From Clostridia bacterium (GTDB lineage Bacteria; Bacillota; Clostridia; Oscillospirales; CAG-272), in contig JAFQMO010000154.1 of NCBI GenBank assembly GCA_017414385.1, positions 6,005 through 70,004 of the forward strand: a DNA stretch of 64,000 nt, in the 5' to 3' direction. Below are positions 16,407-39,853 of this stretch, one piece after another; the first letter of the stretch is position 1, and every line of letters begins with the position of its first letter. The notes beneath the pieces were generated by a model. The model saw only the letters and a program-made list of their open reading frames with translations, ran no database searches and had not been told where the DNA came from. Made by a program: the position numbers and the translations under genes.

Positions 16407-17012
16407 ATGGCTTCAATCAAAAACGGCACCCATCAGCATCCCTATCTGCGTCCCCTTTTGCGCGTGGGACTGTACGCACTTGCCGTTGTTCTGCTTTGTC
16501 TGCTCCGCAGCACTGCCTTTACATTTTCCCGTCAGGCGACGCTCATATGTGCCTACCTTATGCCTGCATGGATCTCCGCAGTTACGGTATATGAGGGGAT
16601 CCGCTTCGGCGCATGGTTCGGTACGCTGTCCGGACTCTTCTGTGATGCGGCGGGCGGGGAACAGATCTACCGTCTGCCGCTCCTTTATCTGACCGTTGCG
16701 ATCTGCACAGGACTTCTTTGCGGTCCGTTTCTGCGCCGCGGTGCCATTCCGATACTGCTTTCCGATACTGTCTCAACGCTGCTGTGCGCCGTCTTTTTCT
16801 TTGTGCGCGACTGCATCGCAGTCCTTGCAAGCGGCGAACAGCCATCGCTTCTTTTGCTGTTTTTTGGTACAGCGAAAACCGTTCTGCCGGTTTTGGTCCT
16901 CACGCTCCCCCTGCATATTCCCGCCCGTGCCATCTCCCGTATCCGTCGGGAGACGGGAACACAGCTCGGCATTCGCAGCACCCTGCAGACACCGTCGGTC
17001 ACACGGAAATAG
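16407..17012 (+). CDS. polytopic membrane protein, function unknown (MreD-like size/topology)
   Basis: 3' part of track ORF 15933..17012(+). Start at ATG 16407 (MASIKNGTHQ), with AAAGGAGG 7 nt upstream. About 5 hydrophobic helices. The 5' part of the track ORF is antisense to spmA. Confidence 0.7.
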   Translation: MASIKNGTHQHPYLRPLLRVGLYALAVVLLCLLRSTAFTFSRQATLICAYLMPAWISAVTVYEGIRFGAWFGTLSGLFCDAAGGEQIYRLPLLYLTVAICTGLLCGPFLRRGAIPILLSDTVSTLLCAVFFFVRDCIAVLASGEQPSLLLLFFGTAKTVLPVLVLTLPLHIPARAISRIRRETGTQLGIRSTLQTPSVTRK

Positions 17013-17020
17013 TATCCCGG

Positions 17021-17057
17021 GATCCGTATTGCAGCCTTCTCCTGCGGGAGGGGGCTG
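17021..17057 (+). terminator. terminator after the membrane-protein gene
   Basis: gcagcc..ctcc-tgcg-ggag..ggctgc hairpin followed by TCCTTTTTG. Confidence 0.6.
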
Positions 17058-17064
17058 CTCCTTT

Positions 17065-17108
17065 TTGCCGTTATAAAAAAAGAAGGACAGTTCCGCTTTC
17101 GGAACTGT
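17065..17108. terminator. bidirectional terminator
   Basis: 12-bp stem aaggacagttcc / ggaactgtcctt (17073-17084 / 17091-17102), flanked by A and T runs. Serves the convergent genes at 17012 and 17141. Confidence 0.8.
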
Positions 17109-17140
17109 CCTTTTTTCTGATTCTGATAGATGTGTCCGGA

Positions 17141-18841
17141 TCAATCGATGGTAGTATCGATCTGGAAGCGCTGGATCTTGCGCAGTGTGTTCTTGGGGAA
17201 CTCCTTGGATCTGACCTTGAAGATACGGATCTTCTTATAGGAGACCGCATTCTTATTGTATTCATCGATATAGGGCTTGAGATGCTCCTTGATGTCAACG
17301 ATGTTGTTCTTTTCAATGTAGTCCTTATCGGGATAGACCTCTGCAACGATCGCGTTATGCGACACGCCGCGCTTGCTCTGTCCCTCATAGACAACAATAT
17401 CGAGAATTCCGGGCGTTGCAATAAGCTCATTTTCGATCTCCTCGGGATAAACGTTCTTGCCGTTGGAGAGAATGATCAGATTCTTCTTTCTGCCTGTGAT
17501 GTAGAGGATGTTGTTCTTATCCAGCTTACCGTAGTCGCCGGTATGGAAGAAGCCCTCCTCATCAATGGCGGCAGCGGTCGCTGCTTCGTCACGGTAATAG
17601 CCGAGCATGACGTTGGGGCCCTTGACACAGATCTCACCCTCGCCGTCCTCATTGGGATCGTCGATGCGCACAGTGTCAATATCGAGGACCGTTCCGACAC
17701 TGCCGGGAACCACATGGCGCGTACGGTTGACGGCAATGATGGGGGCACATTCGGTAATACCGTATCCGTTCAGTGTCGAAATACCGATGGATTCAAAGAA
17801 ATTCAGAATATCGGGATTGATCGATGCGCCGCCGGAAATGATCATACGGATCTTGCCGCCGAATGCCTCACGTACGGAAGAAAACATTTTTGCGCGCAGA
17901 TCGATACCGATCTTACGAAGGCTGTTGCTCAATGCGATCATCTTATACAAAAGCGCTTCCTTGCCCTGATCCTTGACGGTTGCAAGGATCTTGCGGTAGA
18001 AGGTCTCCAGATACAGAGGGACCAAAACCATATGCTCGGGCTTCTGCTCCTTCAGTTCACGCTGGACATAGCGCAGCCCGGAGGAGATATAGATCTCCGC
18101 ACCGATGATCGCATGACCGATCATCATCACAGAGGAGCCGTAGGTATGATGGGGCGGCAGAACACCGACGGTCTTGATACCGAAATCCACGTAAGGAATG
18201 ACATCGCAAAGATCGGAAAGCACCGCGCTCTGAGAGAGCATAACACCCTTGCCCTTGCCCGTTGTTCCGGAGGTAAACACCAGCAGCGCCATCACAAAGG
18301 GATCGATCTCCTCGCCGAAATACGAATCGGGACCTGCTGCAAACAGCTCTCTGCCCGCCTCGACAAGCGCCAAAAGTCCATCCTCCCGCTCCGCCGATGC
18401 GCCAAGCATCACCGGTGCGTGCAGAAGGTCACAGTGCTCCACAATGGCACCGCTCTTTGCGCCGAGCGTATCCTCAATGAACAAAAATTCCGCACCCGCA
18501 TTCTTTGCGGTATCCGCAAGATCCGCAGGCTGCCACTCAGGGTCCAGAGGAACCAATACACCGCCGATGGAAAGCACGGAAAAATAGGTCAGCACCCATT
18601 CGTAGCTGAACTTGCCGACAATGACACAGTGCCGATGTGCACAGCCCATTTTCATCAGCGAGGAGGCCAGCGCACGGACATCGTCGCGCAGCTGTGCGAA
18701 GGTGATCCTTTCGATCGCCTCGTCGTGTGCGTTTTTGCGGTAGGAATAAGCATACCGTTCACCGTATTCCTCTCCCGCCCACTCTATCAGCGCACGGACA
18801 TCGGTGAATTCTCTTTTTGGGTGAAGCTGTTCTTTTCTCAT
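17141..18841 (-). CDS. AMP-dependent acyl-CoA synthetase/ligase (long-chain-fatty-acid-CoA ligase-like)
   Basis: Track ORF 17141..18865(-). AMP-binding motifs LVFTSGTTGKGKGV, GYGITE, TGDYGKLD. Start at 18841 (MRKEQL, GAGAGG upstream) or 18865. Confidence 0.9.
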   Translation of the reverse strand: MRKEQLHPKREFTDVRALIEWAGEEYGERYAYSYRKNAHDEAIERITFAQLRDDVRALASSLMKMGCAHRHCVIVGKFSYEWVLTYFSVLSIGGVLVPLDPEWQPADLADTAKNAGAEFLFIEDTLGAKSGAIVEHCDLLHAPVMLGASAEREDGLLALVEAGRELFAAGPDSYFGEEIDPFVMALLVFTSGTTGKGKGVMLSQSAVLSDLCDVIPYVDFGIKTVGVLPPHHTYGSSVMMIGHAIIGAEIYISSGLRYVQRELKEQKPEHMVLVPLYLETFYRKILATVKDQGKEALLYKMIALSNSLRKIGIDLRAKMFSSVREAFGGKIRMIISGGASINPDILNFFESIGISTLNGYGITECAPIIAVNRTRHVVPGSVGTVLDIDTVRIDDPNEDGEGEICVKGPNVMLGYYRDEAATAAAIDEEGFFHTGDYGKLDKNNILYITGRKKNLIILSNGKNVYPEEIENELIATPGILDIVVYEGQSKRGVSHNAIVAEVYPDKDYIEKNNIVDIKEHLKPYIDEYNKNAVSYKKIRIFKVRSKEFPKNTLRKIQRFQIDTTID

Positions 18842-18886
18842 ATCAAGAAAACCTCTCATCATCATAGTTTCTTATTTTGGGAAATA

Positions 18887-19498
18887 TCAGACAGTCGCAC
18901 GGATCTTCATTCCGTCCAGCAGGATGCCGAAGCTGTATCGGAAATTCTGTACCGCCTCATCACGCGGGATCTGCCGCGCAACGGCATCGGCATTGTAGCC
19001 GCGGCAGAAGCACCAGATCGCATAGCTCATGACATCGGAATCGATGTCTGTGCGGATCAGAGCATGTGCCTTCGCATACTCCACAAGCTTACGGATCTCT
19101 CTCTTCCACCATTCATAATTGTTCTCCGACAGCGAATCGTTTTCAAATACGTACTGATTGAAGTGCATCTTGAGATCATAGGACAACAGCAGGGTATTGA
19201 CCACAACATCCGTTACCTGTGCGAAAAAGTCACGGCTTGCATCCACTGCAGACACCAGACTCTCCCTGATCTTCATCGCAATGTTCCGATATACGATCTC
19301 CAATACCTCCTCGATATTGCGGAAACGGTTATAGAACACGCGGTTTGTGATCTCCAGGCGGCACAGGATCTTGCGTACGGTCAATGTATTCGCGCCCTCC
19401 GCCGTTACCAGATATTCGGCTGTGTCGATGATCTTCTGCGACATCTCGTCCTTGATCCGTTCTTTTTGGTTATCATATTCCATCGTTTCTGTACTCAT
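18887..19498 (-). CDS. TetR/AcrR-family transcriptional regulator
   Basis: Track ORF 18887..19546(-), whose first codon is TTG. TetR HTH region (IIDTAEYLVTAEGANTLTVRKILCRLEITNRVFYNRFRNIEEV). First ATG is at 19498; the exact start is uncertain (GTG 19522 also follows AAAGGAAAG). Confidence 0.85.
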   Translation of the reverse strand: MSTETMEYDNQKERIKDEMSQKIIDTAEYLVTAEGANTLTVRKILCRLEITNRVFYNRFRNIEEVLEIVYRNIAMKIRESLVSAVDASRDFFAQVTDVVVNTLLLSYDLKMHFNQYVFENDSLSENNYEWWKREIRKLVEYAKAHALIRTDIDSDVMSYAIWCFCRGYNADAVARQIPRDEAVQNFRYSFGILLDGMKIRATV

Positions 19499-19559
19499 AC
19501 AAAAACGGAGCGCATCACGCACCGTTTTCGTTCTTTCCTTTGACAATTTGCATATTGTT

Positions 19560-19576
19560 CAGCACACTGTGTGCTG
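19560..19576. promoter_or_regulatory. 17-bp perfect palindrome, candidate TetR operator
   Basis: CAGCACAC-T-GTGTGCTG lies immediately downstream of the -10 box of the tetR promoter. Confidence 0.55.
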
Positions 19577-19585
19577 CACGGTGAT

Positions 19586-19614
19586 ATTATACCATATCCC
19601 ATCCCGTTTGTCAA
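19586..19614 (-). promoter_or_regulatory. consensus promoter TTGACA-17-TATAAT for tetR / acyl-CoA ligase
   Basis: Reverse strand: TTGACA (19609-19614), 17-nt spacer ending TGG, TATAAT (19586-19591). Confidence 0.65.
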
Positions 19615-19737
19615 TCGGTTTTCACAAGTTTTTTGTGTACGCTCCGATCCTGAGAGAACGTGCCTCCGATAACAGGCAACGGAGGCACATTCCATTTATT
19701 TCCATTTATTTCCATACAAAGCGCACGTCTGCGCCGA

Positions 19738-21792
19738 TCATCTCTTTTTCGTTCCCTTTTTGGGCGGCTTTGCCTTTGCCCATCCCTTTTTGGACACAGA
19801 AGCCGTGCTTCTTTTTGCCGTATTCGCGGCTTTATCCGTATGTGCGGTGCCGCTGCGGCTCTGCTTTGCGCCAAGGCTTCTGTCGTCGGCACGTCTGCTG
19901 CCGTCTGCGCCGCGCTTTTTGCCTGCAGGGACACGTGTCCCGCCTCGGCTGCCTCTTCCCTGTCCCTGTGCGCCGCTCTCGGGACGTACAAGACATTCGG
20001 GTCCGTAGCCGATCAGGTCCCCTCTGCCGCATTTTTTCAGCGCACGGCGCACCGTATCCGCATTTTCCGGCTTTTTGAACTGCAGGAGTGCACGCTGCAT
20101 CTGCTTTTCCTCATAATCCGTCGGAACAAATACCTCCTTCATGGTAAAGGGATCGATGCCCGTATAGAACATGACCGTCGATGCCGTTCCGGGTGTCGGA
20201 TAGAAATCCTGCACCTGCTCGGGGGAATAGTTCCATTTTTTCAGGTAGCACGCAAGCTCCACCGCATCCGCAAGGGTGCTTGCGGGATGCGACGACATCA
20301 GATACGGCACAAGATACTGCTCCTTGCCGCACGCCGCAGACAGCGCAAAATAGCGCGAACGGAAGCGTTCAAAGACCTCGATGTCGGGCTTTCCCATCTT
20401 ACGCAGAACGGCAGGCGAGCAATGCTCGGGCGCGACCTTGAGCTGTCCGCTGACATGATCCCGCACCAGCTTTTCAAAAAACGCATCGCCCGTTTTTTTA
20501 TCCGCAAGCAGGTAATCAAAGCGGATGCCCGATCGGATGAACACGCGCTTGACGCGCGGCAGCTGCTCGATTCGGGAAAGCAGCTCGATGTATTCGCTGT
20601 GGTCGGTGATCAGATTTTTGCATGGCGTGGGTGCCAGACACTTTCTGTTCTTGCAGACACCCTCCGTCAGCTGCTTTTCGCAGGCAGGTCCGCGGAAATT
20701 CGCCGTCGGTCCGCCAACATCATGGATATAGCCCTTGAATCCGGGCAGCTCCGTGATCTTTTTGGCCTCCTCGACCACGCTTTCGATGCTTCGGCTGCGC
20801 ACAGTCCTTCCCTGATGGAAGGCAAGCGCGCAGAAATTGCATCCGCCAAAGCATCCGCGGTTATGCGTAAGCGAAAACTGCACCTCTGCGATGGCGGGGA
20901 CACCGCCCTCCTTTTCGTAGACAGGGTGATATGTCCTTGCATATGGCAGCGAATAGACCCAATCGAGCATCGGCCGCTCCAGCGGCGGCATCGGCGGGTT
21001 CTGCACGAGCATTTTGTCGTCGTAGTATTCCACGATCGCATCTCCGACACACGCATCCTGATTGCGGTACTGCTCGGCAAAGGCCTCGGCATACAGTCGG
21101 CGGTCGGTCTTGAGATCGTTGTAATCCCAATGGCCGACGGTGGGGAAATGCACCGCCTCATCGCGTCGGCAAAGATAGACGGTCCCGCGCACGTCGCGGA
21201 TCTTTTTGATCGGGATACCGCGGGAGAGCAGATCTGCCAGACGGATGAGGATCGCCTCCCCCATACCGTAGGTCAGAATATCCGCGCGGGAGTCCACAAG
21301 GATACTGCGCCGCACCTTATCGTCCCAATAATCATAATGGGCAAAGCGGCGCAGGGACGCCTCCAGCCCCCCGAGGATGATCGGCACATCTCCGTACGCC
21401 TGACGGATCCGGTTACAGTACACGATCACGGCGCGGTCGGGGCGCCGTCCCATCTTACCGCCCGGAGAATAATAGTCATAGCTGCGCCGGCGCTTGGCAG
21501 CGGTATAATGCGCGACCATGGAATCGATATTTCCCGCGGAAACGAGAAAGCCCAGACGCGGACGTCCGAAGCGCATAAAGTCCGTATGCGAGGTGTAATC
21601 GGGCTGACACAGCATCGCAACGCGATAGCCCTTCGCCTCGAGCACACGGGAAATGATCGATGCACCAAACGACGGATGATCGACATATGCATCCCCGCAT
21701 ACATAAACAAAATCGGGAGCATCCCAGCCTCGCTGCTCCATCTCCTCTTTCGTGATGGGAAGAAATGCGCCCGTTTGATCGGTTTGTGCCAT
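19738..21792 (-). CDS. ygiQ: YgiQ-family radical SAM protein (UPF0313)
   Basis: Track ORF 19738..21858(-). Start at ATG 21792 (MAQTDQTGAFLPITKEEM), AAAGGAGG upstream. Radical SAM CFGGCNFC motif. Lys/Arg-rich C-terminal tail. Confidence 0.92.
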   Translation of the reverse strand: MAQTDQTGAFLPITKEEMEQRGWDAPDFVYVCGDAYVDHPSFGASIISRVLEAKGYRVAMLCQPDYTSHTDFMRFGRPRLGFLVSAGNIDSMVAHYTAAKRRRSYDYYSPGGKMGRRPDRAVIVYCNRIRQAYGDVPIILGGLEASLRRFAHYDYWDDKVRRSILVDSRADILTYGMGEAILIRLADLLSRGIPIKKIRDVRGTVYLCRRDEAVHFPTVGHWDYNDLKTDRRLYAEAFAEQYRNQDACVGDAIVEYYDDKMLVQNPPMPPLERPMLDWVYSLPYARTYHPVYEKEGGVPAIAEVQFSLTHNRGCFGGCNFCALAFHQGRTVRSRSIESVVEEAKKITELPGFKGYIHDVGGPTANFRGPACEKQLTEGVCKNRKCLAPTPCKNLITDHSEYIELLSRIEQLPRVKRVFIRSGIRFDYLLADKKTGDAFFEKLVRDHVSGQLKVAPEHCSPAVLRKMGKPDIEVFERFRSRYFALSAACGKEQYLVPYLMSSHPASTLADAVELACYLKKWNYSPEQVQDFYPTPGTASTVMFYTGIDPFTMKEVFVPTDYEEKQMQRALLQFKKPENADTVRRALKKCGRGDLIGYGPECLVRPESGAQGQGRGSRGGTRVPAGKKRGADGSRRADDRSLGAKQSRSGTAHTDKAANTAKRSTASVSKKGWAKAKPPKKGTKKR

Positions 21793-21827
21793 TCGATATG
21801 CCTCCTTTGACAGCATTTTCGGAAATC

Positions 21828-21872
21828 GGAAAACGGTAAAACGGGGTGCCGCACGCATGTGCGGTACCCCGT
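21828..21872 (-). terminator. intrinsic terminator after infB
   Basis: 14-bp stem acggggtRccgcac / gtgcggtaccccgt (21841-21854 / 21859-21872), followed on the minus strand by TTTTACCGTTTT. Confidence 0.8.
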
Positions 21873-21939
21873 GATCAGTCCGTTCTTTTGCAGGACAGAG
21901 AGCAGCTCCGTCTCTCCAAGAAGGTCAAGACCGCAGATC

Positions 21940-24930
21940 TTAACCTCTCTTGACCTCCTCCATAATGAAGGCCTCGAGAATATCGCCTTCCTTGATATCG
22001 TTGAAGCGATCCAATCCGATACCGCATTCGTATCCCTGAACGACTTCCTTTGCATCGTCCTTGAAGCGCTTGAGGGACTTGATGGAGTCCTCAAAGATCA
22101 CGATACCGTCACGGACGATACGGATCTTGGACTGTCTTGTGACCTTACCGTCCAGAATGTAGGAGCCTGCGATGGTTCCGACATTGGGAACGTGAATGGT
22201 CTGTCTGACCTCTGCGTGTCCGAGCAGTGCCTCGCGGAATTCGGGCGCAAGCATACCCTTCATGGCAGCCTCGATCTCCTCGATACACTCATAAATGATA
22301 CGGTAGGTACGGATATCGACATTCTGTGCCGCAGCCGAGTCGAGCGCGCTCTTATCGGGACGGACGGAGAAGCCGATGATAATGGCATTGGATGCGGATG
22401 CAAGCATAACGTCGTTTTCGGTGATACCGCCGACTGCGGTATGGATGACATTGACCTTGACCTCATCATTGGAAAGCTTGATCAGAGATGCCTTGACTGC
22501 CTCCACAGAGCCGGCAACGTCTGCCTTGATGATCACATTGAGATCCTTGACACCCTCCTTGATCTGTGCAAACAGATCGTCGAGATTCGCTCTTGCGCTC
22601 GCCTTGAAGGTCTCCTCCTTCTGCTGATCGCGGCGCTGCTCTGCAAGCTCACGCGCCATACGCTCATCGGAAACAACAGCGAACTCGTCACCTGCCTGCG
22701 GGATCTCCGCAAGACCTGTGATCTCAACGGGAACAGAGGGACCTGCCTCCTTGATGGTGCGTCCCTTATCATTGACCATGGCACGGACGTGACCGACAGC
22801 TGTACCTGCGATCAGGACATCGCCTGCATGCAGAGTACCTGTCTGGATGAGCAGTGTCGCAACGGGGCCGCGGCCGCGGTCGAGCTTGGACTCGAGGACC
22901 AGACCCTTTGCACGGCGGTTGGGATTGGCCTTGAGCTCCTTCATTTCCGCGACGAGCAGGACCATCTCAAGCAGGTCCTCAATACCCTTGCGTGTCAGTG
23001 CGGAAACGGGAACACAGATGGTATCTCCGCCCCAATCCTCGGGCACGAGATCGTATGCGGTCAGGCTCTGCTTGACCATATCGGGGTTCGCCTGCGGCTT
23101 ATCCATCTTGTTGATGGCAACGATGATCGGGATATTTGCCGCCTTTGCGTGGTTGATGGCTTCCACGGTCTGCGGCATGATACCGTCATCTGCCGCAACG
23201 ACGAGGATCGCAATGTCTGTCGATTTTGCACCGCGTGCACGCATTGCCGTGAACGCCTCATGTCCGGGCGTATCGAGGAAGGTGATGTCTCTGTCGTTGA
23301 TGCGCACACGGTACGCACCGATCGCCTGCGTGATACCGCCTGCCTCGCCTGCCGTGACGTTGGTATCACGGATGGCATCGAGCAGAGAGGTCTTACCGTG
23401 GTCAACGTGTCCCATGACACAGACAACGGGTGCGCGGATGATCATATCCTCTTCCTTATCCTCTTCCTCAACAAAGAGCTTTTCTTCGATGGTCACAACG
23501 ACTTCCTTTGTGACATTCGCGCCGAATTCGTCTGCAATGAGCGCCGCCGTATCAAAGTCGATGACCTGGTTGACGCTCGCCATGATGCCGAGCAGCATCA
23601 GCTTCTTGACGATCTCTGCGTTGGTAACGTGCAGGAGGGCCGCAAGCTCGTTGACCTGCAGTGCCTCGGGGATGGTGACGTTGAGCGGCTGTGCCTTCGC
23701 CTTCTGTGCCGCCTCACGGCGCATCTTCTCCATTGCCTCGCGCTCCTTATCGCCGCCGCGGCGCTTCTTATCGTAGGGAGTGCGGGCATTGTTGTTCTGC
23801 TTCTTCAGCTTCTGCTTTGTACCGGAGAAGTTCTTTGCTGCATCCGGCACCAGCGTATCGAGCTTTTCATCGTATTTGGACAGATCGACTGCGCTGTCTG
23901 CGCCGCGTGTATCGACGACACGGGTAGAGCCGCCTGTCGCTGTGGGCTTGGTATAAGAGGTCGCCTTGGGCTGCTCGGGCTTGGGCGCTGCCGCACGGAA
24001 TGCGGGACGTCCGCCGCCCTCCTTGGGATCTCTGTCCTCCATTGCGCCAAAGCCGCGGGAGCCGCCTCTGTTATCGCGCTGGAAGCGGTTATCGCCGCCC
24101 TTGTTATCGCGATTCTGGTATCCGCCCTGCTGTGTCGGACGGTTGTTGTCGCGATTCTGGTAGCCGCCCTGCTGTGCCGGACGGTTGTTGTCGCGGTTCT
24201 GGTAGCCGCCCTGCTGTGCCGGACGGTTGTTGTCGCGGTTCTGGTAGCCGCCCTGCTGTGCGGGACGGTTGTTGTCGCGGTTCTGGTAGCCGCCCTGCTG
24301 TGCCGGACGGTTGTTGTCGCGGTTCTGATAGCCGCCCTGCTGTGCGGGACGGTTGTTATCGCGGCTCTGTGCGTTCTGCGGCTTCTGATTGGTATTGGGA
24401 CGGAACTGTACCGGCTGCTTTTGTGCTTCAGCCTTGGGTGCATCTGCCTTGGGTGCATCTGCCTTGGGCGCTTCGGCCTTGGGTGCATCTGCCTTGGGTG
24501 CATCTGCCTTGGGCGCTTCAGCCTTGGGCGCTTCTGCCTTGGGTGCTTCAGCCTTCGGCGCTTCTGCCTTGGGCGCTTCTGCCTTCGGCGCTTCTGCCTT
24601 CGGCGCTTCTGCCTTCGGCGCTTCGGTCTTAGGTGCTTCGGTCTTGGGTGCATCGACCTTGGTATCCTCTTTCTTCGGCGCAGACTTCTTTTCTGCGCGC
24701 GGAATGTCTACCTCTCCCGAAAGATACTGTGTCATATTGGTGATCTGATTGTCATGCGTCAATCCTTCGATCACAATACCGTATTCATCCGGTGTCAACG
24801 TCGCGGTATTCTTCTTTCCTGTGATACCCTTCGCTTCCAGAATATCAATGATGGTCTTGCTCTTTACACCAAAATCTTTTGCCATATTGCTGATACGGCT
24901 GTTGGGGGAATTTATCATGTATTGTATCAT
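21940..24930 (-). CDS. infB: translation initiation factor IF-2
   Basis: Track ORF 21940..24948(-), whose first codon is TTG. GTPase motifs [27 protein letters not shown] 24930 overlaps the ylxQ stop (ATGA); ATG 24918 is an alternative. N-terminal repeat-rich region. Confidence 0.97.
24101..24366. repeat. 42-bp tandem repeat, about 6.3 copies, inside infB (encodes [14 protein letters not shown] units)
   Basis: Near-identical 42-nt units begin at 24101, 24143, 24185, 24227, 24269 and 24311. They are in frame with IF-2. Confidence 0.9.
24431..24655. repeat. 15-bp tandem repeat, 15 copies, inside infB (encodes K-A/T-E/D-A-P pentapeptides)
   Basis: gccttgggtgcatct-type units repeat head to tail from 24431 to 24655. 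They are in frame with IF-2. Confidence 0.9.
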
Positions 24931-25373
24931 TCCTTTCGTGGTAAACAATCATCAGAATTGGGAAGTAACTTCTTTAACGCCTCGGCCAGCCCCATATCCG
25001 TTATGCCGACCGCTGCCGTGATCCCTGCACGTCCGATCGCCGAGCCGAGCTCTGCGCCCGTCAATGCAGTCGGATATAGGGGGATCTCATAGTATGTGCA
25101 GCAGTTTCCTACACGCTTTTTTGTATTCTCGGAGGCATCACAGGCAAGGAACACCGCACACGGACATCCCTTTGCACGCCCTGCGCGGATGGCATCCGTC
25201 ACAAGGTTGGTCCCCGCGACCACGCGTCCTCCCTTTTTGGCGATCCCCAAAAGTCCCGCAAGCTTTTTCCTTTGCTGCAGCTGTGCAAGCAGCATCTCTG
25301 CTTCCTTTGGGTCATCCGGGATCTGCGGCAGCTGCCGCTCCTTTGCCGGGCACATCTCTTCTTTATCCTTCAT
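24927..25373 (-). CDS. ylxQ: L7Ae/L30e-family RNA-binding protein YlxQ
   Basis: Full [30 protein letters not shown]...[14 protein letters not shown] core. Canonical position between ylxR and infB. Confidence 0.85.
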
Positions 25374-34692: not shown

Positions 34693-35787
34693 ATGGAGAA
34701 AAAGATCAGACTTGGTATCATCGGCTGCGGCGGTATCGCGCATAAGCATATGCAGGCATTTTTGCGGATTCCCGAGGTAGAGATCGTCGGCGGCGCCGAC
34801 ATCGTTCCCGGAAAGGCACGCGCGTTCTTTGACGAATTCGAGCTCTCCGATGCGCTCGCCTTCGACTGTGCAACAGATCTGCTCAAATGCGATCTGGATG
34901 CAGTTTCCATCTGTACCTACAATTCCCAGCACGCAGTCTGTGCTGTTGAGGCCTTGGAGGCAGGCTGTCATGTGCTTTTGGAAAAACCCATGTGTCTGAA
35001 CATGAAGGAGGCTGCGGAGATCTATGCGGCGGAAAAGAAGTCCGGCAAGATCCTGACCATCGGCTTCCAGCCCAGATACGGACAGAACTTCCGTCAGGTC
35101 AAGGAGATCATCTCCTCCGGCGCGCTCGGTGACGTCTACTACGTTCAGACCGGCGGCGGCAGAAGCCGCGGTATCCCCGGCAACACCTTCATCGACAAGG
35201 ACAAGGCAGGTGTCGGTGCGCTTGCAGACATCGGCTGCTATGCCCTCGACTTTGCCCTCAACTCCATCGGCTATCCCAAGCCCCTGACCGTTTCCGCCGT
35301 CGCATACGACTACTTCGGAAAGAATCCCAAGTACTATCCCGAGGCAGAGCGCTTCTCCGTTGACGATTTCTCCGCTGCCTTCATCCGTCTGGAGGGCGGC
35401 ATCACCCTTGACTTCCGTATGAGCTGGGCGATGCACATGGACACCACAGGCGACTTCCTGTTCCTCGGAAAGGATGCCGGCCTGAAGGTCAGACAGCCCG
35501 ATATGCATCCCTGGGGCGGTGCATGGGACGGCATTCTCGGTGAGGTCACCATGTTCCACGATGTATTCGGTCGTCCCACAAGCACCAAGATCCCCCTTGC
35601 AGAAGAGAAAAAGACCGACCTCTTCTACCTCAAGATCCGTTCCTTCGTTGATGCGGTCCTCACCGGCGGAAAGGCTCCCGTTCCTACCTCCGAGATCCTC
35701 TACAACCAGGCCATCATCGACGGTATCATCCGCTCCGTTGCGTGCGGTCATGAGGTCGAGACCGATCTTTCCTTCCTCGATAAATAA
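34693..35787 (+). CDS. Gfo/Idh/MocA-family NAD(P)-dependent oxidoreductase
   Basis: Full ORF. N-terminal Rossmann motif IRLGIIGCGGIAHKH. EKPMCLNMKEA motif typical of the family. Confidence 0.92.
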   Translation: MEKKIRLGIIGCGGIAHKHMQAFLRIPEVEIVGGADIVPGKARAFFDEFELSDALAFDCATDLLKCDLDAVSICTYNSQHAVCAVEALEAGCHVLLEKPMCLNMKEAAEIYAAEKKSGKILTIGFQPRYGQNFRQVKEIISSGALGDVYYVQTGGGRSRGIPGNTFIDKDKAGVGALADIGCYALDFALNSIGYPKPLTVSAVAYDYFGKNPKYYPEAERFSVDDFSAAFIRLEGGITLDFRMSWAMHMDTTGDFLFLGKDAGLKVRQPDMHPWGGAWDGILGEVTMFHDVFGRPTSTKIPLAEEKKTDLFYLKIRSFVDAVLTGGKAPVPTSEILYNQAIIDGIIRSVACGHEVETDLSFLDK

Positions 35788-35810
35788 AACAATTGTTCCA
35801 AATCCATGCT

Positions 35811-35849
35811 TCTGCCATATGCGTTTTTCGTGTATGGCAGATCTTTTTT
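35811..35849 (+). terminator. terminator after the oxidoreductase gene
   Basis: tctgccata / tatggcaga stem (35811-35819 / 35833-35841) followed by TCTTTTTT. Confidence 0.8.
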
Positions 35850-35893
35850 ATACAAAATACCGAAAATTTGTTCGTTTTTTCGTCCGAAACCTC

Positions 35894-35922
35894 TTGACAA
35901 ACACGGTTTTTCATGGTATAAT
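35894..35922 (+). promoter_or_regulatory. perfect consensus promoter TTGACA-17-TATAAT upstream of the phage-like block
   Basis: TTGACA 35894-35899, 17-nt spacer ending TGG (extended -10), TATAAT 35917-35922. Confidence 0.65.
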
Positions 35923-35929
35923 ATCGGTT

Positions 35930-36150
35930 ACAATACGAACATTTGTTTGTTTTCGTGTTGTAGAGCCCCCCAAAATGCCGTTGTGTGAAGGGAACACCTC
36001 TGCACGAAGCGGTACGCCTCCGAGGATGACAGACAAAGCCCCCCTGTACACATCGGAGGAAATACACGCATAAGCCCCCGAAGCAAAAAAAAGAAACGCG
36101 CGTATCCGCCGGCAGAAAAAACGCCGAGCGGTCTTAATCGCGCAGAAAAG
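35930..36150 (+). promoter_or_regulatory. about 230-nt structured leader with three AGCCCCC(C) motifs, class unknown
   Basis: 10-bp hairpin acaatacgaa/ttcgtgttgt (35930-35961). 7-bp helix cctccga/tcggagg (36017-36023 / 36053-36059) encloses acag..ctgt. AGCCCCCC occurs at 35964 and 36037, AGCCCCC at 36073. No credible ORF. Confidence 0.35.
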
Positions 36151-36162
36151 GAGCAGATCTGT

Positions 36163-37515
36163 ATGGTACAGGGAGCAACCTATGTATTACCGATCGCCCC
36201 CGCCGTTCCGCTTGAGGCGGTAAGGGAGATCATTTTTTCATTTGCAAACAAGCGGAAGGTCCTCGTACAGAAGCAGTATCCGGGCGAGGATACAGCGCTT
36301 CTCTCCGACGGGACCGTCGCCGTCTGTCTTTCACAGGAGGACACCGCGGCACTGACGGGAAAAACGGAGATCGAGGCGCAGTACATTTTCAAAAACGGCA
36401 CCGTTGCCAAAAGCGAGACTGCGCTCCGTTATTTTTCCCCGACGCTGTTCACAAAATTCACAGAGGCACACACAGACTATCTTTCTTCAAAAGATATGCT
36501 GTCCGTTCTTGAATTGAAGCCCGCAGAATCCTTTACGGTCGTCAACATCGGCATGCCGGGAAAGGACGGTGTGGGGATCGCTTCCGCGGAGCAGACAGAG
36601 ACCTCGCAGGAGAGCGGCGGCATCAACCGCTTCACGCTGTCACTGACAGACGGCACCGCGCACACCCTCGAGGTCCGAAACGGTCTTGACGGAAAGGACG
36701 GCGCTGACGGCAGAGACGGCATCTCCCTCCAACACGAATGGACAGGAACGGTGCTTTCCGTTACCTCCGAGGCAGGGACGAGTGCCGTCGATCTCGCAGG
36801 TCCCAGAGGACCGCAGGGCATTGCAGGAGATGTCGGTCCGCAGGGGCCTGAGGGTCCGCGCGGACCGGAGGGCCCGCAGGGGGCACCGGGTGTGCCCGGC
36901 GAGCGAGGCCCGAAGGGCGAGCAAGGCTTGCCCGGCGAGCAGGGTGTACCCGGCGAGACGGGACCTGCGGGCGAGCGGGGAGAGAGAGGCGAGACCGGCC
37001 CCGAGGGGCCTATGGGACCGCAAGGAGAAGCAGGACCCGCAGGTGCTGACGGCATCACCCCGCAGAAGGGCGTCGATTACTTCACAGAGGACGAGGTGAT
37101 CGCCTTTCAGAACGGCATTGCCAATCGCCTGACGGAGATCATCGGGGAGATCCCGCGCATCGAGATCGGCTGTTATGTCGGCACCGGAAGCTTCGGCAGC
37201 GAAAACGCCAACACCCTCTCCTTTGATTTCACACCGCGTCTTTGGGGCATTGCCTGCCACGGCAGCGCCACAAACGGAGACATTGCCAATCTTTCCGGAG
37301 TGTATTCCCATCCGCACATCTTTCCCTGGCAGGAAAGCGACACCTTCTGGGCAGACGTCGTCCAATATATGGGTACCAACGATGACGAAAACAAGGAGAT
37401 CTTCCTTCGATACAACGCAAACACCGTCACCTGGTACGCATCCGCGAGCGAGGGCTGCGAAACAGATCAGTTCAACGCCTCCCGTACTGCCTATTTTTAT
37501 TTTGCAATCGCATAA
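36163..37515 (+). CDS. collagen-like (Gly-X-Y) repeat protein, phage tail-fibre-like
   Basis: Full ORF, AAAAGGAG RBS. About 40 uninterrupted G-X-Y triplets (GPRGPQGIAGDVGPQGPEGPRGPEGPQGAPG...). Non-collagen N- and C-terminal domains. No signal peptide. Confidence 0.85.
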   Translation: MVQGATYVLPIAPAVPLEAVREIIFSFANKRKVLVQKQYPGEDTALLSDGTVAVCLSQEDTAALTGKTEIEAQYIFKNGTVAKSETALRYFSPTLFTKFTEAHTDYLSSKDMLSVLELKPAESFTVVNIGMPGKDGVGIASAEQTETSQESGGINRFTLSLTDGTAHTLEVRNGLDGKDGADGRDGISLQHEWTGTVLSVTSEAGTSAVDLAGPRGPQGIAGDVGPQGPEGPRGPEGPQGAPGVPGERGPKGEQGLPGEQGVPGETGPAGERGERGETGPEGPMGPQGEAGPAGADGITPQKGVDYFTEDEVIAFQNGIANRLTEIIGEIPRIEIGCYVGTGSFGSENANTLSFDFTPRLWGIACHGSATNGDIANLSGVYSHPHIFPWQESDTFWADVVQYMGTNDDENKEIFLRYNANTVTWYASASEGCETDQFNASRTAYFYFAIA

Positions 37516-37527
37516 AGGAGGCAGCAC

Positions 37528-37815
37528 ATGAAACGACTGATCGAGATCACAGCACAGAAAAACGGCGCGCACCGAAACCGCATCTGTTTTCAAAGGACCG
37601 TATCCGTCCCCGACGGATGGGCAGTCATTGCAGACGGTCTGCAGACGGAGAATTTTCCCTTCGGCGACGTCACGGTACGCGAGGAGGACGGTGTCATGAC
37701 CGTCACATCCTGGAATGCGCTTCCGCTCCCGCCCGTCTCCGAGGACGGAGAGGAACGCATCACAGCATCCGATATTTTGAATGTACTTTTGGGGGAGGAA
37801 GACCGTGAAGAATAA
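37528..37815 (+). CDS. small phage protein (XkdW-like position and size)
   Basis: Full ORF, 95 aa, AAAGGAGG RBS. Acidic C-terminus. Lies directly after the fibre gene. Confidence 0.6.
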   Translation: MKRLIEITAQKNGAHRNRICFQRTVSVPDGWAVIADGLQTENFPFGDVTVREEDGVMTVTSWNALPLPPVSEDGEERITASDILNVLLGEEDREE

Positions 37816-38245
37816 ATTGAAAAAAGCATCTCAGCTGCGCCGTCTCCTGCTTTTGAGCGCGCAGGGACTGGATACCGATGCGGCAATGCAGGTCGCCTGT
37901 ATTTTTGAGGCATGGGGCGCGGGGCGCGACTACACAGGCGGCGAATATTTCACCTACGGTGAGAACGCCGTCGGCGACCCGCAGCTGTACCGCGTCAACG
38001 AGGGTATGGCACATCGCAGCCGTGAGGAATGGATCCCCGGCACCGATGCCGCAGCCGCTCTTTACACTGCCATTGGTCTGGATACGGCGGGGTATCCCAT
38101 CTGGTCCGCACCGACGGGAGCACACGATGCATACGATCTTGGGGACACCGTCAATCACGGCGGCACGCTTTACGTATCCGAGATCGACGGAAACTGCACA
38201 GCTCCGGGGGAGGATTCGCGCTTCTGGCGTATCCTTACCCGCTGA
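37805..38245 (+). CDS. phage-associated protein with two CBM5/12-like carbohydrate-binding repeats
   Basis: Part of track ORF 37781..38245(+). GTG 37805 follows GGGGGAGGAAG and overlaps the upstream stop. Two W..x..Y..GD.V.Y.G..Y-type repeats (EAWGAGRDYTGGEYFTYG...; WSAPTGAHDAYDLGDTVNHGGTLYV). Confidence 0.62.
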   Translation: MKNKLKKASQLRRLLLLSAQGLDTDAAMQVACIFEAWGAGRDYTGGEYFTYGENAVGDPQLYRVNEGMAHRSREEWIPGTDAAAALYTAIGLDTAGYPIWSAPTGAHDAYDLGDTVNHGGTLYVSEIDGNCTAPGEDSRFWRILTR

Positions 38246-38274
38246 TCTGTCATCAAAAGGGGGACATATCACTG

Positions 38275-38490
38275 ATGAAGCATATACTGACATGGGCATG
38301 GCTGCGCGCTGCGCTGATCCGTGCCGTAAGGACCGTTGCACAGAGCGCCGCAGCCACGATCGGCTGTGCCGCTGTGCTTGGCGATGTCGATTGGTGCATG
38401 ACGGCATCTGCCGCCGTGCTTGCAGGCATTTTATCTCTTCTGACCTCCGTTGCGGGACTTCCTGAGGTCGGAGAGGAGGCAGATACATGA
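38275..38490 (+). CDS. holin (r1t-holin-like, 2 TM, 71 aa)
   Basis: 3' part of track ORF 38029..38490(+). Start at ATG 38275 (MKHILTWAWLRAALIRAVRTVAQSAAATIG), AAAAGGGGGA upstream. Two hydrophobic helices and an acidic tail. Confidence 0.7.
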   Translation: MKHILTWAWLRAALIRAVRTVAQSAAATIGCAAVLGDVDWCMTASAAVLAGILSLLTSVAGLPEVGEEADT

Positions 38491-38735
38491 GTGCAGGATC
38501 TGTCATTGCGCTGATCGGTCTGATCCTCTCCTTCGTCATTGCGTTTGCTCGCTTTGTGGCGGGCCTTGCGGAATTCTCCGCTGCAGTCCGTTCGCTGACG
38601 GAGGAGGTCAAATCCATCAAGCGCGCATCACAAAAGGAGCACGACGAGCTTTGGCAGACACTGGACCGCCACGAGGATCGTATCCGCCATCTTGAGCTTG
38701 AGGGCAGACACCCCGAAGGAGGATATCTTGACTGA
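38487..38735 (+). CDS. small N-terminal-TM / coiled-coil protein of the lysis module
   Basis: Full ORF, 82 aa. The ATG overlaps the holin stop (ATGA). TM helix VIALIGLILSFVIAFARFVAGL, then a charged helix. Confidence 0.62.
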   Translation: MSAGSVIALIGLILSFVIAFARFVAGLAEFSAAVRSLTEEVKSIKRASQKEHDELWQTLDRHEDRIRHLELEGRHPEGGYLD

Positions 38736-39537
38736 CAATCGAAAAATCGGCATCGACATCTCGACCTATCAGAAATCGGCAGACTGGGGCAGGGCTGCGG
38801 CGGACGGCATCTCCTTTGCCATGATCAAGGCAACGCAGGGGCGCTCGGAGGGCGATGCATCGCTGTATCTGTTTACCGACAGCTGCTTTGAGCAGAACAT
38901 CCTGGGTGCCGCCGAAAACGGCATCGCCTGCGGTGTTTACCACTATCTGACCGCCTCCGACACGGCAGGTGCGCTGGAGGAGGCGGATTATTTTCTGTCT
39001 GTCATCGCGCCGTTTCGCCGTCAGATCACCCTTTATGCCGCCGTCGATGTGGAATCCAAATATCTGCCGACGGACAAGGCACGTCTGACGGAGATCACAG
39101 ACGTTTTCTGTGCCCGTGTGGAGGCAGCGGGATTTGTACCGATGGTCTACACCAACCCCGCGTTTCTTGCCAACCGTCTCGGCGATATCGGAAAATGGAA
39201 GCTTTGGCTTGCACTCTGGCGTGATCGGTCGCAGCTTCCCGATCCTGCCTGCTATCCGAATCTCACCCTATGGCAGTGGGGTGCGGAAAACCGCAGCTGG
39301 GTCGGCGGATCGGGTGCGGTTGCACTCAATCTCGATCTCAGCGAGGAGGCAATGGACACGGACACCGTATCCGACTGGGCGGTACAGGCCATGGCATGGG
39401 CGGAGGAGGCAGGGCTTTTCATCGGAGACGAAAACGGTGCGCTGCGCCCCGGTCAGCCGATCACAAGAGAACAGGCAGCACTTCTGTTTTTCCGTTTTTT
39501 GGATTATCTCAAGGGGCAATCTCATCTTTTCCGCTAA
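38728..39537 (+). CDS. GH25 muramidase (endolysin) with C-terminal SLH-like wall-binding repeat
   Basis: Track ORF 38692..39537(+). TTG 38728 follows GAAGGAGG by 5 nt and overlaps the upstream stop. GH25 motifs GIDISTYQ, FAMIKATQG, GVYHY, LWQWG. C-terminal SDWAVQAMAWAEEAGLFIGDENGALRPGQPITREQAALLFFRF. Confidence 0.85.
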   Translation: MTDNRKIGIDISTYQKSADWGRAAADGISFAMIKATQGRSEGDASLYLFTDSCFEQNILGAAENGIACGVYHYLTASDTAGALEEADYFLSVIAPFRRQITLYAAVDVESKYLPTDKARLTEITDVFCARVEAAGFVPMVYTNPAFLANRLGDIGKWKLWLALWRDRSQLPDPACYPNLTLWQWGAENRSWVGGSGAVALNLDLSEEAMDTDTVSDWAVQAMAWAEEAGLFIGDENGALRPGQPITREQAALLFFRFLDYLKGQSHLFR

Positions 39538-39550: not shown

Positions 39551-39581
39551 CACCGCCGCATTTGCGGCGGTGCTTTTTTTG
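39551..39581 (+). terminator. terminator after the endolysin gene
   Basis: caccgccgca-tt-tgcggcggtg followed by CTTTTTTTG. Confidence 0.85.
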
Positions 39582-39824: not shown

Positions 39825-39853
39825 TTGACAAACCATGGCAACTGTTGTATAAT
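39825..39853 (+). promoter_or_regulatory. perfect consensus promoter TTGACA-17-TATAAT of the MBOAT cassette
   Basis: TTGACA 39825-39830, 17-nt spacer ending TG, TATAAT 39848-39853. Confidence 0.65.

What the first reader, a model, noticed from the sequence alone, without database searches (positions are those of the whole stretch)
35930..36150. Unclassified ~230-nt leader RNA with three AGCCCCC(C) motifs in front of the phage-like block
About 230 nt with no credible ORF lie between the consensus promoter (-10 at 35917-35922) and the fibre gene ATG (36163). The region has clear pairing potential. There is a 10-bp hairpin at 35930-35961. A 7-bp helix CCTCCGA/TCGGAGG (36017-36023 / 36053-36059) encloses a second helix whose loop is ACAAAGCCCCC. 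The motif AGCCCCC(C) recurs three times (35964, 36037, 36073) in apparently unpaired positions. C-rich loops are the hallmark of anti-Shine-Dalgarno regulatory RNAs in Firmicutes (RsaE/RoxS, RNAIII). Equally, this could be a riboswitch or antitermination leader that gates a potentially lethal lysis cassette. It matched none of the riboswitch consensus sequences I could recall.
Basis: seen in the sequence. Interest (0 to 1): 0.55.

Follow-up and report, generated by a model that had tools for sequence, protein, structure and literature searches.

The report
SOS-gated leader of a relic lysis operon
The rest of the leader, with its three AGCCCCC motifs, is an orphan found in one rumen Clostridia species and has no testable RNA function yet.

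Summary

The RNA-regulator interpretation gains no support:
- Rfam gives no match, even at E<=10.
- There is no intrinsic terminator inside the leader.
- The C-rich motifs do not pair preferentially with the cassette's ribosome-binding sites.
- Every retrievable copy of the leader is >98% identical (one species), so covariation cannot be tested.

The new result is at the DNA level. Three Firmicute LexA (Cheo/DinR) boxes lie exactly 75 bp apart around the promoter:
- O1 at 35787-98.
- O2 at 35861-74.
- O3 at 35936-49, sequence CGAACATTTGTTTG.

Only 2 of 20,000 composition-matched shuffles give three such boxes.

The operon (collagen-like tail fibre, two small proteins, r1t-type holin, a small transmembrane protein, GH25-SLH endolysin) is an isolated prophage remnant between housekeeping genes. 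It is most likely repressed by LexA and induced by DNA damage. The remaining ~200 nt of leader may tune stability or translation, or may do nothing. Interest is modest.

The parts
35786..35799 (.). O1, a LexA-box-like site. The + strand reads AAAACAATTGTTCC; the core on the - strand is GAACAATTGTTT. It overlaps the stop codon of the upstream GFO/IDH/MocA gene.
   Evidence: inverted copy of O3, 82%. Its centre is 75 bp from the centre of O2.
35811..35841 (+). Intrinsic terminator of the upstream oxidoreductase gene (13-bp stem followed by a T-run).
35861..35874 (.). O2, a LexA-box-like site CGAAAATTTGTTCG (reverse complement CGAACAAATTTTCG). It lies 20 bp upstream of the -35 hexamer.
   Evidence: 18-nt direct repeat of O3, 89% identical, start-to-start spacing 75.
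35894..35922 (+). Consensus sigma-70/SigA promoter: TTGACA, 17-nt spacer, TGnTATAAT.
   Evidence: 12 of 12 positions, TG present.
35936..35949 (.). O3, a canonical Firmicute SOS (Cheo) box CGAACATTTGTTTG.
   Evidence: the only perfect match to CGAACN4GTTYG in 64 kb. The S. aureus lexA box is CGAACAAATGTTTG. The C. difficile recA operator contains GAACAAATGTTTG.
35930..35961 (+). Predicted 5'-terminal hairpin H1 (10 bp, -11.7 kcal/mol). Its 5' arm and loop are the O3 operator.
35964..35971 (+). C-rich motif 1, AGCCCCCC. Other strains have AGCCCCCA.
   Evidence: Mean unpaired probability 0.40.
35976..36014 (+). Predicted hairpin H2.
   Evidence: -15.9 kcal/mol, z = -3.0.
36017..36059 (+). Predicted hairpin H3. 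The outer helix CCUCCGA/UCGGAGG pairs an anti-SD-like sequence with an SD-like sequence. The loop carries motif 2.
   Evidence: pairing probability of the outer helix about 1.0.
36037..36044 (+). C-rich motif 2, AGCCCCCC, in the H3 loop.
   Evidence: Unpaired probability 0.87.
36073..36079 (+). C-rich motif 3, AGCCCCC, in the linker. It is followed by an A-run (36086-93) that is 8 or 9 A long depending on the strain.
   Evidence: Unpaired probability 0.70.
36098..36143 (+). Predicted hairpin H4, with an A6 loop.
   Evidence: -22.2 kcal/mol, z = -3.7.
36150..36165 (+). Shine-Dalgarno GGAG and the ATG of the fibre gene.
   Evidence: Homology with P0151 runs from residue 1.
36163..37515 (+). Collagen-like tail-fibre protein, 450 aa.
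   Evidence: Pfam Collagen; PHROG tail-fibre families.
37528..38245 (+). Two small fibre-associated proteins: p95 (37528-37815) and p146 (37805-38245). p146 has a weak, sub-threshold match to Pfam CBM_5_12 (E=0.0021, 18.5 bits against a cut-off of 26.2).
38275..38490 (+). r1t-type holin, 71 aa.
   Evidence: PF16945, E=4e-12.
38487..38735 (+). 82-aa protein with a predicted N-terminal transmembrane segment and a charged C-terminal half; no family match above threshold.
38728..39537 (+). Endolysin with a GH25 muramidase domain and an SLH domain, 269 aa.
39551..39580 (+). Intrinsic terminator that closes the operon.

Best explanation
The region is the 5' untranslated leader of a stand-alone, prophage-derived operon: tail fibre, two small proteins, holin, a small membrane protein and endolysin. 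I infer that its transcription is gated by the host SOS repressor LexA.

A consensus SigA promoter is bracketed by three LexA (Cheo/DinR-type) boxes spaced exactly 75 bp apart. O1 lies at about -140 and O2 at about -62.

Proposed mechanism (inferred):
1. In undamaged cells LexA occupies the boxes. O3 blocks open-complex formation or promoter escape.
2. After DNA damage, activated RecA triggers LexA self-cleavage.
3. The very strong promoter fires and the fibre/holin/endolysin transcript is made, which leads to lysis.

The remaining ~200 nt (hairpins H2-H4 and three exposed AGCCCCC motifs) travels along as a structured 5' UTR. At most it tunes mRNA stability or translation. No riboswitch, attenuator or anti-SD mechanism can be demonstrated.

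What is shown: the sequence features, their statistics, the gene content, the chromosomal context and the restriction to one species. What is inferred: LexA binding, the transcription start site, SOS induction and any RNA role.
For: Box statistics and arrangement:
- O3 (CGAACATTTGTTTG) is the only perfect CGAACN4GTTYG in 64 kb.
- 3 of the 7 window matches to GAACN4KTTY fall within 162 bp around this promoter.
- Their centres are 75.0 bp apart. The repeat finder reports them independently as an 18-nt direct repeat (89%) and a 17-nt inverted repeat (82%).
- Only 2 of 20,000 dinucleotide-preserving shuffles of the local 191-nt AT-rich region give three or more boxes.

Match to published operators:
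- B. subtilis consensus CGAACATATGTTCG / CGAAC-N4-GTTCG (PMC8270828 Table 1; PMC4551915).
- Clostridial consensus GAACnnnnGTTT/GTTC and the C. difficile recA operator GAGAACAAATGTTTG (PMC4234289).
- S. aureus lexA box CGAACAAATGTTTG (PMC11442139).

Occurrence elsewhere:
- The 18-mer AATACGAACATTTGTTTG recurs in 20 IMG/VR contigs.
- 14 of them are one gut temperate-phage lineage, where it sits in the lysogeny module between an XRE-type repressor gene and an integrase gene.

Promoter and context:
- The promoter is 12/12 with the TG extension.
- No regulator gene lies next to the cassette. The neighbours are a GFO oxidoreductase, a cation-efflux protein and an MBOAT protein, which favours a global host regulator.
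- The cassette is bounded by terminators and contains a holin and an endolysin.

Against an RNA switch:
- No Rfam hit.
- No terminator in the leader.
Against: - No LexA protein, recA/lexA promoter or other SOS gene of this organism was available to calibrate the box. The window contains no recognisable SOS gene.
- O1 is weak: 9 of 14 positions against the consensus, 7 of 8 in the core.
- Regular 75-bp spacing is not a known property of LexA regulons. It could point to a different GAAC-N4-GTTC-binding repressor.
- All copies are from one species (~99.3% identical across the locus), so conservation of the boxes is uninformative.
- The leader folds better than 90-96% of same-length windows, with strong strand asymmetry.
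- All four strain polymorphisms fall at positions with unpaired probability >=0.5. This is weakly compatible with a selected RNA structure, which this explanation treats as secondary.
Confidence: 0.55

Rival explanations
1. The ~200 nt after O3 is a genuine cis-regulatory RNA, such as a translational riboswitch or a protein- or sRNA-binding leader. The three exposed AGCCCCC motifs would be recognised by a trans factor, adding a post-transcriptional checkpoint before the lethal holin/endolysin genes are expressed.
For: - Four stable predicted hairpins. Folding z = -3.1 to -4.6 on the + strand against -1.35 on the - strand.
- Three copies of a 7-8-nt motif within 116 nt. Two of the three copies are predicted mostly unpaired (mean 0.87 and 0.70); the first is about half paired (0.40).
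- H3 pairs an anti-SD-like CCUCC with a decoy GGAGG. This is an arrangement typical of expression platforms.
- The four strain polymorphisms avoid helices.
Against: - No Rfam family matches even at E<=10.
- No homologue outside one species was found in IMG/VR, phage records or plasmid records.
- No intrinsic terminator lies in the leader.
- The SD is only about 50% paired in the ensemble.
- 10% of random windows of this genome reach z of about -3.
- No covariation data are available.
Confidence: 0.2
2. The leader, or a processed fragment of it, acts in trans or in cis as an RsaE/RoxS-like C-rich anti-Shine-Dalgarno RNA. It would mask G-rich ribosome-binding sites, for example those of p146 (UUUUGGGGGAGG) and the holin (AAGGGGGAC).
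For: - Motif 1 (CCCCCAAAA) is 9-nt complementary to the p146 SD region at 37787-95.
- Leader 36025-33 is 9-nt complementary to 38246-54, next to the holin SD.
- In my approximate list of start regions (many starts outside the cassette are uncertain), 2 of the 6 cassette regions contain G5 and only 1 of about 50 others does.
Against: - Duplex energies of the three motif segments against 219 SD-bearing start regions rank p146 at 31 and the holin at 116.
- The total leader/operon complementarity lies within the range of shuffles (29 8-mers against a shuffle maximum of 31).
- No terminator exists to release a short RNA.
- The region gave no Rfam match of any kind at E<=10; RsaE is an Rfam family.
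Confidence: 0.05
3. The three boxes are operators for a repressor other than LexA, such as a phage-type or other GAAC-N4-GTTC-binding protein encoded elsewhere in the genome. The cassette would then be controlled by that protein rather than by the SOS response.
For: - The exact 75-bp periodicity and the shared asymmetric extension (GTTYG-TTTT) go beyond the palindromic LexA core.
- The viral contig L165 carries an array of at least 5 similar boxes spaced 50-148 nt apart, two gaps being 65-66 nt. This suggests a dedicated array-binding regulator.
Against: - The core is indistinguishable from experimentally defined LexA boxes of Bacillus, Staphylococcus and Clostridioides.
- No regulator gene is adjacent to the cassette.
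Confidence: 0.12
4. The leader is functionless filler left when the upstream part of a prophage late operon was deleted. The hairpins and repeats are incidental.
For: - In the nearest relative of the fibre gene (L151), the gene follows a 361-aa tail gene after 12 nt, with no leader.
- The cassette is confined to one species and sister taxa lack it.
- The leader accumulates substitutions at least as fast as its flanks (0.86-1.7% against 0.4-0.8%).
Against: - The leader shows no trace of homology to that upstream tail gene.
- A triple motif within 116 nt is unlikely by chance, given about 6 expected per 128 kb of strand.
- Folding is strand-specific.
Confidence: 0.08

Closest known systems
LexA (DinR) SOS operators of Firmicutes (Cheo boxes), including multi-box promoters such as B. 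subtilis lexA, yolC/yolD of SPbeta and phage GIL01 P1
   Same: - 14-bp CGAAC-N4-GTTCG-type palindromes with AT-rich spacers.
- Positions overlapping or flanking a SigA promoter.
- Several boxes per promoter.
- Control of phage-derived genes (PMC8270828, PMC4551915, PMC4234289).
   Different: - Three boxes at an exact 75-bp period spanning about -140 to +20.
- An asymmetric GTTTT extension shared by the boxes.
- Binding is not tested here.
SOS-inducible phage-derived lysis modules: the end of the PBSX late operon (xkdV-xkdW-xkdX-xepA-xhlA-xhlB-xlyA), colicin/pyocin lysis cassettes, and C. perfringens uviAB/bcn (from my own knowledge)
   Same: - Gene order of fibre, small proteins, holin and endolysin.
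- Presumed induction by DNA damage.
- Altruistic lysis as the likely outcome.
   Different: - No capsid, tail, bacteriocin, regulator or sigma-factor gene is linked. The module stands alone between housekeeping genes.
- It appears to be wired directly to LexA.
- It carries a 233-nt leader.
RsaE/RoxS and the staphylococcal Rsa sRNAs with unpaired C-rich motifs
   Same: Several C-rich motifs are displayed in a loop and in linkers between hairpins.
   Different: - No sequence or structure match in Rfam.
- No terminator of its own.
- It lies in cis as a 5' UTR.
- Pairing with G-rich SD sequences is not better than background.
Lambda pR' / 6S leader with Q antitermination, and HK022 put RNAs (from my own knowledge)
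   Same: - A strong promoter followed by a ~200-nt structured leader ahead of phage late and lysis genes.
- A -10-like TACAAT hexamer at the transcription start (35928-33).
   Different: - No terminator in the leader to antiterminate.
- No Q-like gene nearby.
- No similarity to put RNAs.

Membership tests
Any Rfam 15 family (riboswitches, T-box, RsaE/RoxS, c-di-GMP/c-di-AMP and others) | Covariance-model score at or above the gathering threshold. | tested here: not met
   the only hit in the window is a glycine riboswitch at 2356-2447; at E<=10 over 35800-36300 there are only three chance-level hits (E = 6-10, 11-13 bits).
Transcription-attenuation leader (terminator/antiterminator riboswitch, T-box or protein-dependent attenuator) | An intrinsic terminator (GC-rich stem followed by a U-run) between the promoter and the start codon. 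| tested here: not met
   no + strand terminator between 35842 and 36306. None of H1-H4 is followed by a U-run.
Structured regulatory RNA (generic) | Conservation with compensatory base changes in diverged homologues. | tested here: inconclusive
   All 9 other copies are >98% identical, with only 4 variable positions. No diverged homologue was found.
RsaE/RoxS-like anti-SD sRNA | C-rich unpaired motifs that pair with G-rich SD sequences of targets, and a discrete short transcript with its own terminator. | tested here: not met
   The motifs are present and two of the three are predicted mostly unpaired. However, cassette start regions rank 31 to 187 of 219 for duplex energy, and there is no terminator.
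Firmicute LexA/DinR operator | Match to CGAAC-N4-GTTCG (core GAAC-N4-GTTC/T) with an AT-rich spacer. | tested here: met
   O3 matches 12/14 and O2 12/14 against CGAACATATGTTCG. O1 matches 9/14, with 7/8 in the core. Published boxes with 3-5 mismatches bind LexA.
Firmicute LexA/DinR operator | Location at or next to the promoter of the regulated gene. | tested here: met
   O2 ends 20 bp upstream of the -35 hexamer. O3 starts 14 bp after the -10 hexamer.
Firmicute LexA/DinR operator | More boxes than chance would give. | tested here: met
   Three or more boxes appear in 2 of 20,000 local dinucleotide-preserving shuffles. The window holds 3 of its 7 matches in 162 bp.
Firmicute LexA/DinR operator | Specific binding by LexA and derepression on DNA damage. 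| not testable with these tools
   This needs EMSA or footprinting and mitomycin C induction.
Firmicute LexA/DinR operator | The same box type upstream of recA, lexA and uvrB in the same organism. | not tested
   No SOS gene lies in the window, and other contigs of this MAG could not be fetched.
Prophage remnant lysis cassette | Phage-type fibre, holin and endolysin genes without the rest of a phage, in a chromosomal context. | tested here: met
   Searches give the domains. Searches show the same housekeeping flanks in several strains. There is no tRNA and no flanking direct repeat. An intact-phage relative of the fibre gene is in L151.

The most novel reading that the evidence does not exclude
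The 200 nt between O3 and the ribosome-binding site form a previously undescribed cis-regulatory RNA. Its three exposed AGCCCCC motifs would be read by a trans-acting protein or G-rich sRNA. This would give an SOS-induced suicide-lysis module a second, post-transcriptional safety catch. Together with the evenly spaced triple operator, that would be a two-layer gate on a domesticated holin/endolysin cassette.
Probability: 0.15. Interest if true: 0.6.

Novelty: new member of a known kind. Interest (0 to 1): 0.3.

Why it matters
If the LexA reading holds, a rumen Clostridia species keeps a minimal fibre/holin/endolysin module wired directly to the DNA-damage response. That would be a compact example of prophage domestication for programmed lysis, which could release DNA, vesicles or shared goods in a dense gut community.

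The case also carries a caution for sequence-only scans. A palindromic protein operator just downstream of a promoter looks exactly like an RNA hairpin.

The orphan C-rich leader remains a reasonable but low-priority candidate for a new regulatory RNA. Its value depends on finding diverged copies or on wet-lab tests.

Tried and rejected
1. Rfam at gathering threshold and at E<=10: nothing relevant.
2. Other copies of the leader in the 64-kb window: none.
3. Homologues through the fibre protein in GTDB genomes and IMG/VR: only collagen-repeat hits.
4. Word-index search with the fibre N-terminal domain: no hits. The exhaustive HMMER search found 77 distant relatives at <=47% identity. The nearest sits inside an intact phage tail operon with no leader.
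5. Triple-motif pattern in IMG/VR: non-specific. Blastn of the leader against the loci on disk at that point matched only the same-species copies.
6. Exact hairpin and mid-leader patterns in IMG/VR: zero matches.
7. Hairpin 22-mer in JGI metagenomes: one unrelated AT-rich locus, L150. That collection evidently lacks the samples that hold L014-L019.
8. Orthologous loci through the upstream GFO gene (82-84% aa identity): synteny is lost and there is no cassette.
9. Nearest relatives through p146: identity jumps from 99% to 59%, and the one context examined is an intact phage.
10. Leader as a decayed 3' end of the ancestral upstream tail gene: no tblastn signal. The open minus-strand frames are explained by the T-poor composition of the + strand.
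11. Rho rut-site idea: C/G peaks at only 1.67 over 36030-36107, and much of that stretch is predicted paired. Not pursued.
12. C-rich motif against cassette SD pairing: rejected.
13. att-like flanking repeats and tRNA: none.
14. Phage and plasmid nucleotide databases: no similarity to the leader. The cassette matches phages only through the collagen repeats.

Full report
OBSERVATION

A perfect sigma-70-type promoter is present: TTGACA at 35894-99, a 17-nt spacer, TG at 35914-15 and TATAAT at 35917-22, scoring 12/12. About 233 nt follow before GGAG (36150-53) and the ATG at 36163. The only ATG-initiated frame in between is 32 codons long (35975-36073) and has no ribosome-binding site.

The predicted fold has four hairpins: H1 35930-61, H2 35976-36014, H3 36017-59 and H4 36098-36143. 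AGCCCCC(C) lies after H1, in the H3 loop and after H3. The motif occurs 9 times in the 64-kb window on both strands, and three of those copies fall within 116 nt here.

Folding is better than shuffled sequence. The tool gives z = -3.1. My own 20-shuffle estimate gives -4.6 on the + strand and -1.35 on the - strand. This genome's background is itself skewed: 3.5% of 200 random windows reach -4.6 and 10% reach about -3.0. The fold is good but not extraordinary.

WHAT LIES DOWNSTREAM AND AROUND

The operon runs from 36163 to 39537 and ends at an intrinsic terminator at 39551-72. It encodes the following:
- a 450-aa collagen-like tail-fibre protein;
- a 95-aa protein;
- a 146-aa protein with a weak, sub-threshold match to CBM_5_12;
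- a 71-aa r1t-type holin;
- an 82-aa protein with a predicted N-terminal transmembrane segment;
- a 269-aa endolysin with GH25 and SLH domains.

The flanks are ordinary chromosomal genes. Upstream are an ABC transporter, a DUF4340 protein, a cation-efflux protein and a GFO/IDH/MocA oxidoreductase with its own terminator at 35811-41. Downstream are an MBOAT protein, a DHHW protein and an FkbH-like protein. There is no tRNA and no flanking direct repeat.

The proteins are those of a rumen-type 'Clostridia bacterium' MAG (MBQ3066158-63). The N-terminal 105 residues of the fibre have 77 distant relatives at <=47% identity. The nearest (P0151, locus L151) lies inside an intact phage tail operon, 12 nt after a 361-aa gene, and is followed by a DGR-type reverse transcriptase and a holin. 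Homology with the window begins exactly at ATG 36163, and the leader shows no trace of that upstream gene. The cassette is therefore the isolated 3' end of a prophage late operon that has acquired its own promoter and leader.

RELATED SEQUENCES

Ten copies of the leader, the window included, were assembled from metagenomes and MAGs (L001, L002, L014-L020). All are >98% identical. Across 17 kb the strains differ by 0.4-1.5%. The leader differs by 0.86-1.7%, which is four positions: 35962, 35971, an A-run indel and 36138. All four have predicted unpaired probability >=0.5. This is compatible with a selected fold but statistically weak.

Sister taxa whose GFO protein is 82-84% identical have lost synteny and lack the cassette. 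The next relatives of p146 are only 59% identical, and the one context examined is an intact phage. Neither exact leader patterns in IMG/VR nor blastn against phage and plasmid records found anything. Covariation therefore cannot be tested. The absence of distant homologues means 'not found with exact-pattern tools', not proven absence.

THE NEW ELEMENT: THREE SOS BOXES

The single metagenome hit for the hairpin 22-mer (L150) is an unrelated AT-rich locus. It drew attention to the sequence CGAACATTTGTTTG, which is a canonical Gram-positive LexA (Cheo/DinR) box.

Published operators for comparison:
- B. subtilis consensus CGAAC-N4-GTTCG / CGAACATATGTTCG (PMC4551915; PMC8270828 Table 1).
- Clostridial consensus GAACnnnnGTTT/GTTC, and the C. 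difficile recA operator GAGAACAAATGTTTG (PMC4234289).
- S. aureus lexA box CGAACAAATGTTTG (PMC11442139).

In the window, O3 (35936-49) is the only perfect match to CGAACN4GTTYG. A one-mismatch site, O2 (35861-74, CGAAAATTTGTTCG), lies 20 bp upstream of the -35 hexamer. The relaxed core GAACN4KTTY adds O1 (35787-98, GAACAATTGTTT on the minus strand).

Three of the seven such cores in 64 kb thus sit within 162 bp, with centres exactly 75 bp apart. The repeat finder reports them independently as an 18-nt direct repeat (89%) and a 17-nt inverted repeat (82%). Only 2 of 20,000 dinucleotide-preserving shuffles of the local 34.6%-GC region give three or more cores.

With the transcription start inferred at 35929/30, O3 covers +7 to +20. 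The 18-mer AATACGAACATTTGTTTG also occurs in 20 IMG/VR contigs. Fourteen of them are one gut temperate-phage lineage, where the box lies in the lysogeny module between an XRE-type repressor gene and an integrase gene. No regulator gene is adjacent to the cassette, which favours a global host repressor.

MECHANISM

Most likely (confidence about 0.55), LexA occupies O1-O3 and silences an otherwise maximal promoter. DNA damage then leads to RecA-stimulated LexA cleavage, transcription of the fibre/holin/endolysin mRNA and cell lysis. The sequence statistics are shown. Binding, the transcription start and induction are inferred.

The leader downstream of O3 has no terminator, so terminator-based attenuation or antitermination is excluded. 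Its SD is about half accessible. H3 pairs CCUCC with a decoy GGAGG, which could be an expression platform, but nothing demonstrates switching.

I tested whether the C-rich motifs mask the G-rich ribosome-binding sites of p146 and the holin. There is a 9-nt match for motif 1. However, duplex energies rank the cassette's start regions 31st to 187th of 219, and overall complementarity lies within the shuffle range. The idea is rejected as unsupported.

A functional cis-regulatory RNA remains possible (about 0.2). So do a non-LexA repressor (about 0.12), functionless filler (about 0.08) and an RsaE-like RNA (about 0.05).

ODDITIES

Three contigs break at 35911-35934 (L001, L002, L019). One contig (L016) joins the leader at 35930/31 to unrelated 38%-GC DNA. 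That DNA encodes a 189-aa phage-associated protein whose ribosome-binding site abuts the box. Gut phages show the same geometry of box, ribosome-binding site and ATG. The simplest reading is that assembly graphs tangle, or form chimeras, at an SOS box shared among genomes. A real rearrangement is not excluded.

COMPARISON AND NOVELTY

The promoter region behaves like a multi-box LexA operator. The operon resembles the terminal fibre-to-lysis segment of PBSX-like elements and other SOS-induced lysis modules. That comparison rests on my own knowledge.

It is not a member of any Rfam family, not a terminator-based attenuator, and not demonstrably an RsaE-like RNA. The exact 75-bp periodicity of the boxes and the orphan leader with its triple C-rich motif are the only unusual aspects. 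I rate this a new member of a known kind, with interest about 0.3.

Noticed in passing
L016:1-731 (junction corresponds to window 35930/35931): One JGI contig joins the identical leader and fibre gene to unrelated 38%-GC DNA. That DNA carries a divergent 189-aa ORF with no Pfam or PHROG match. It is 40-47% identical to ORFs in uncultured human-gut phage contigs. Its ATG lies 10 nt from the junction and about 15 nt from box O3. This is either a chimera formed at a shared SOS box or a real rearrangement.
   Followed up: partly
window 35911-35934 (5' ends of L001, L002 and L019): Three independent metagenome contigs end within 23 nt of each other, just upstream of or inside box O3. This suggests an assembly-graph branch at a sequence shared among genomes in those samples.
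   Followed up: partly
L165:280-790 (IMGVR_UViG_3300044233_002495): A viral contig carries an array of at least five GAAC-N4-KTTY boxes, two of them perfect GAACAATTGTTC palindromes, plus ATGTTCG half-sites. The gaps between boxes are 66, 65, 148 and 50 nt and the spacers are GC-rich. The array sits just upstream of an AT-rich promoter-like region. The periodic-operator architecture resembles window O1-O3.
   Followed up: partly
L155-L174; for example L156:3014-3031: The 18-mer AATACGAACATTTGTTTG occurs in 20 IMG/VR contigs. Fourteen belong to one gut temperate-phage lineage. There it lies between an HTH_3 repressor gene and a Zn-ribbon/TM2 gene, next to an integrase gene.
   Followed up: partly
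window 2356-2447 (-): Glycine riboswitch aptamer (RF00504, 57.5 bits). It is the only Rfam hit at gathering threshold in the window.
   Followed up: no
window 39825-39853: A second perfect TTGACA-17-TATAAT promoter lies in front of the MBOAT gene, after two tandem terminators (39551-72 and 39621-46). Perfect consensus promoters seem common in this genome.
   Followed up: no
window 35928-35933: A -10-like hexamer TACAAT lies right at the inferred transcription start. It could act as a sigma-dependent promoter-proximal pause element.
   Followed up: no
window 38491-38735 (p82 gene): This gene is a divergence hot spot between strains: 12 differences (4.9%) against L014, compared with 0-0.6% in the neighbouring cassette genes.
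   Followed up: no
window 36025-36035 against 38996-39006, and against 38246-38254: The 5' arm of leader hairpin H3 (GATGACAGACA) is 11-nt complementary to a site inside the endolysin gene. It is also 9-nt complementary to the sequence just upstream of the holin Shine-Dalgarno. About 0.2 such 11-mers are expected by chance.
   Followed up: partly
window 16718-25092: Three long + strand ORFs (941, 716 and 1077 aa) have no Pfam hit. They are either novel large proteins or wrong-strand artefacts of my crude ORF picking.
   Followed up: no
L151:10143-12147: The intact phage that carries the nearest fibre relative has a reverse transcriptase (RVT_1) and a DUF6273 gene directly after the fibre genes. 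This suggests a diversity-generating retroelement.
   Followed up: no
window 36163-37515: The NCBI record of this MAG lists the collagen-like protein as 339 aa (MBQ3066158.1). The ORF here, and in the strains behind P0002 and P0004, is 450 aa. The cause is probably a different start call or a collapse of the collagen repeats in the assembly.
   Followed up: no
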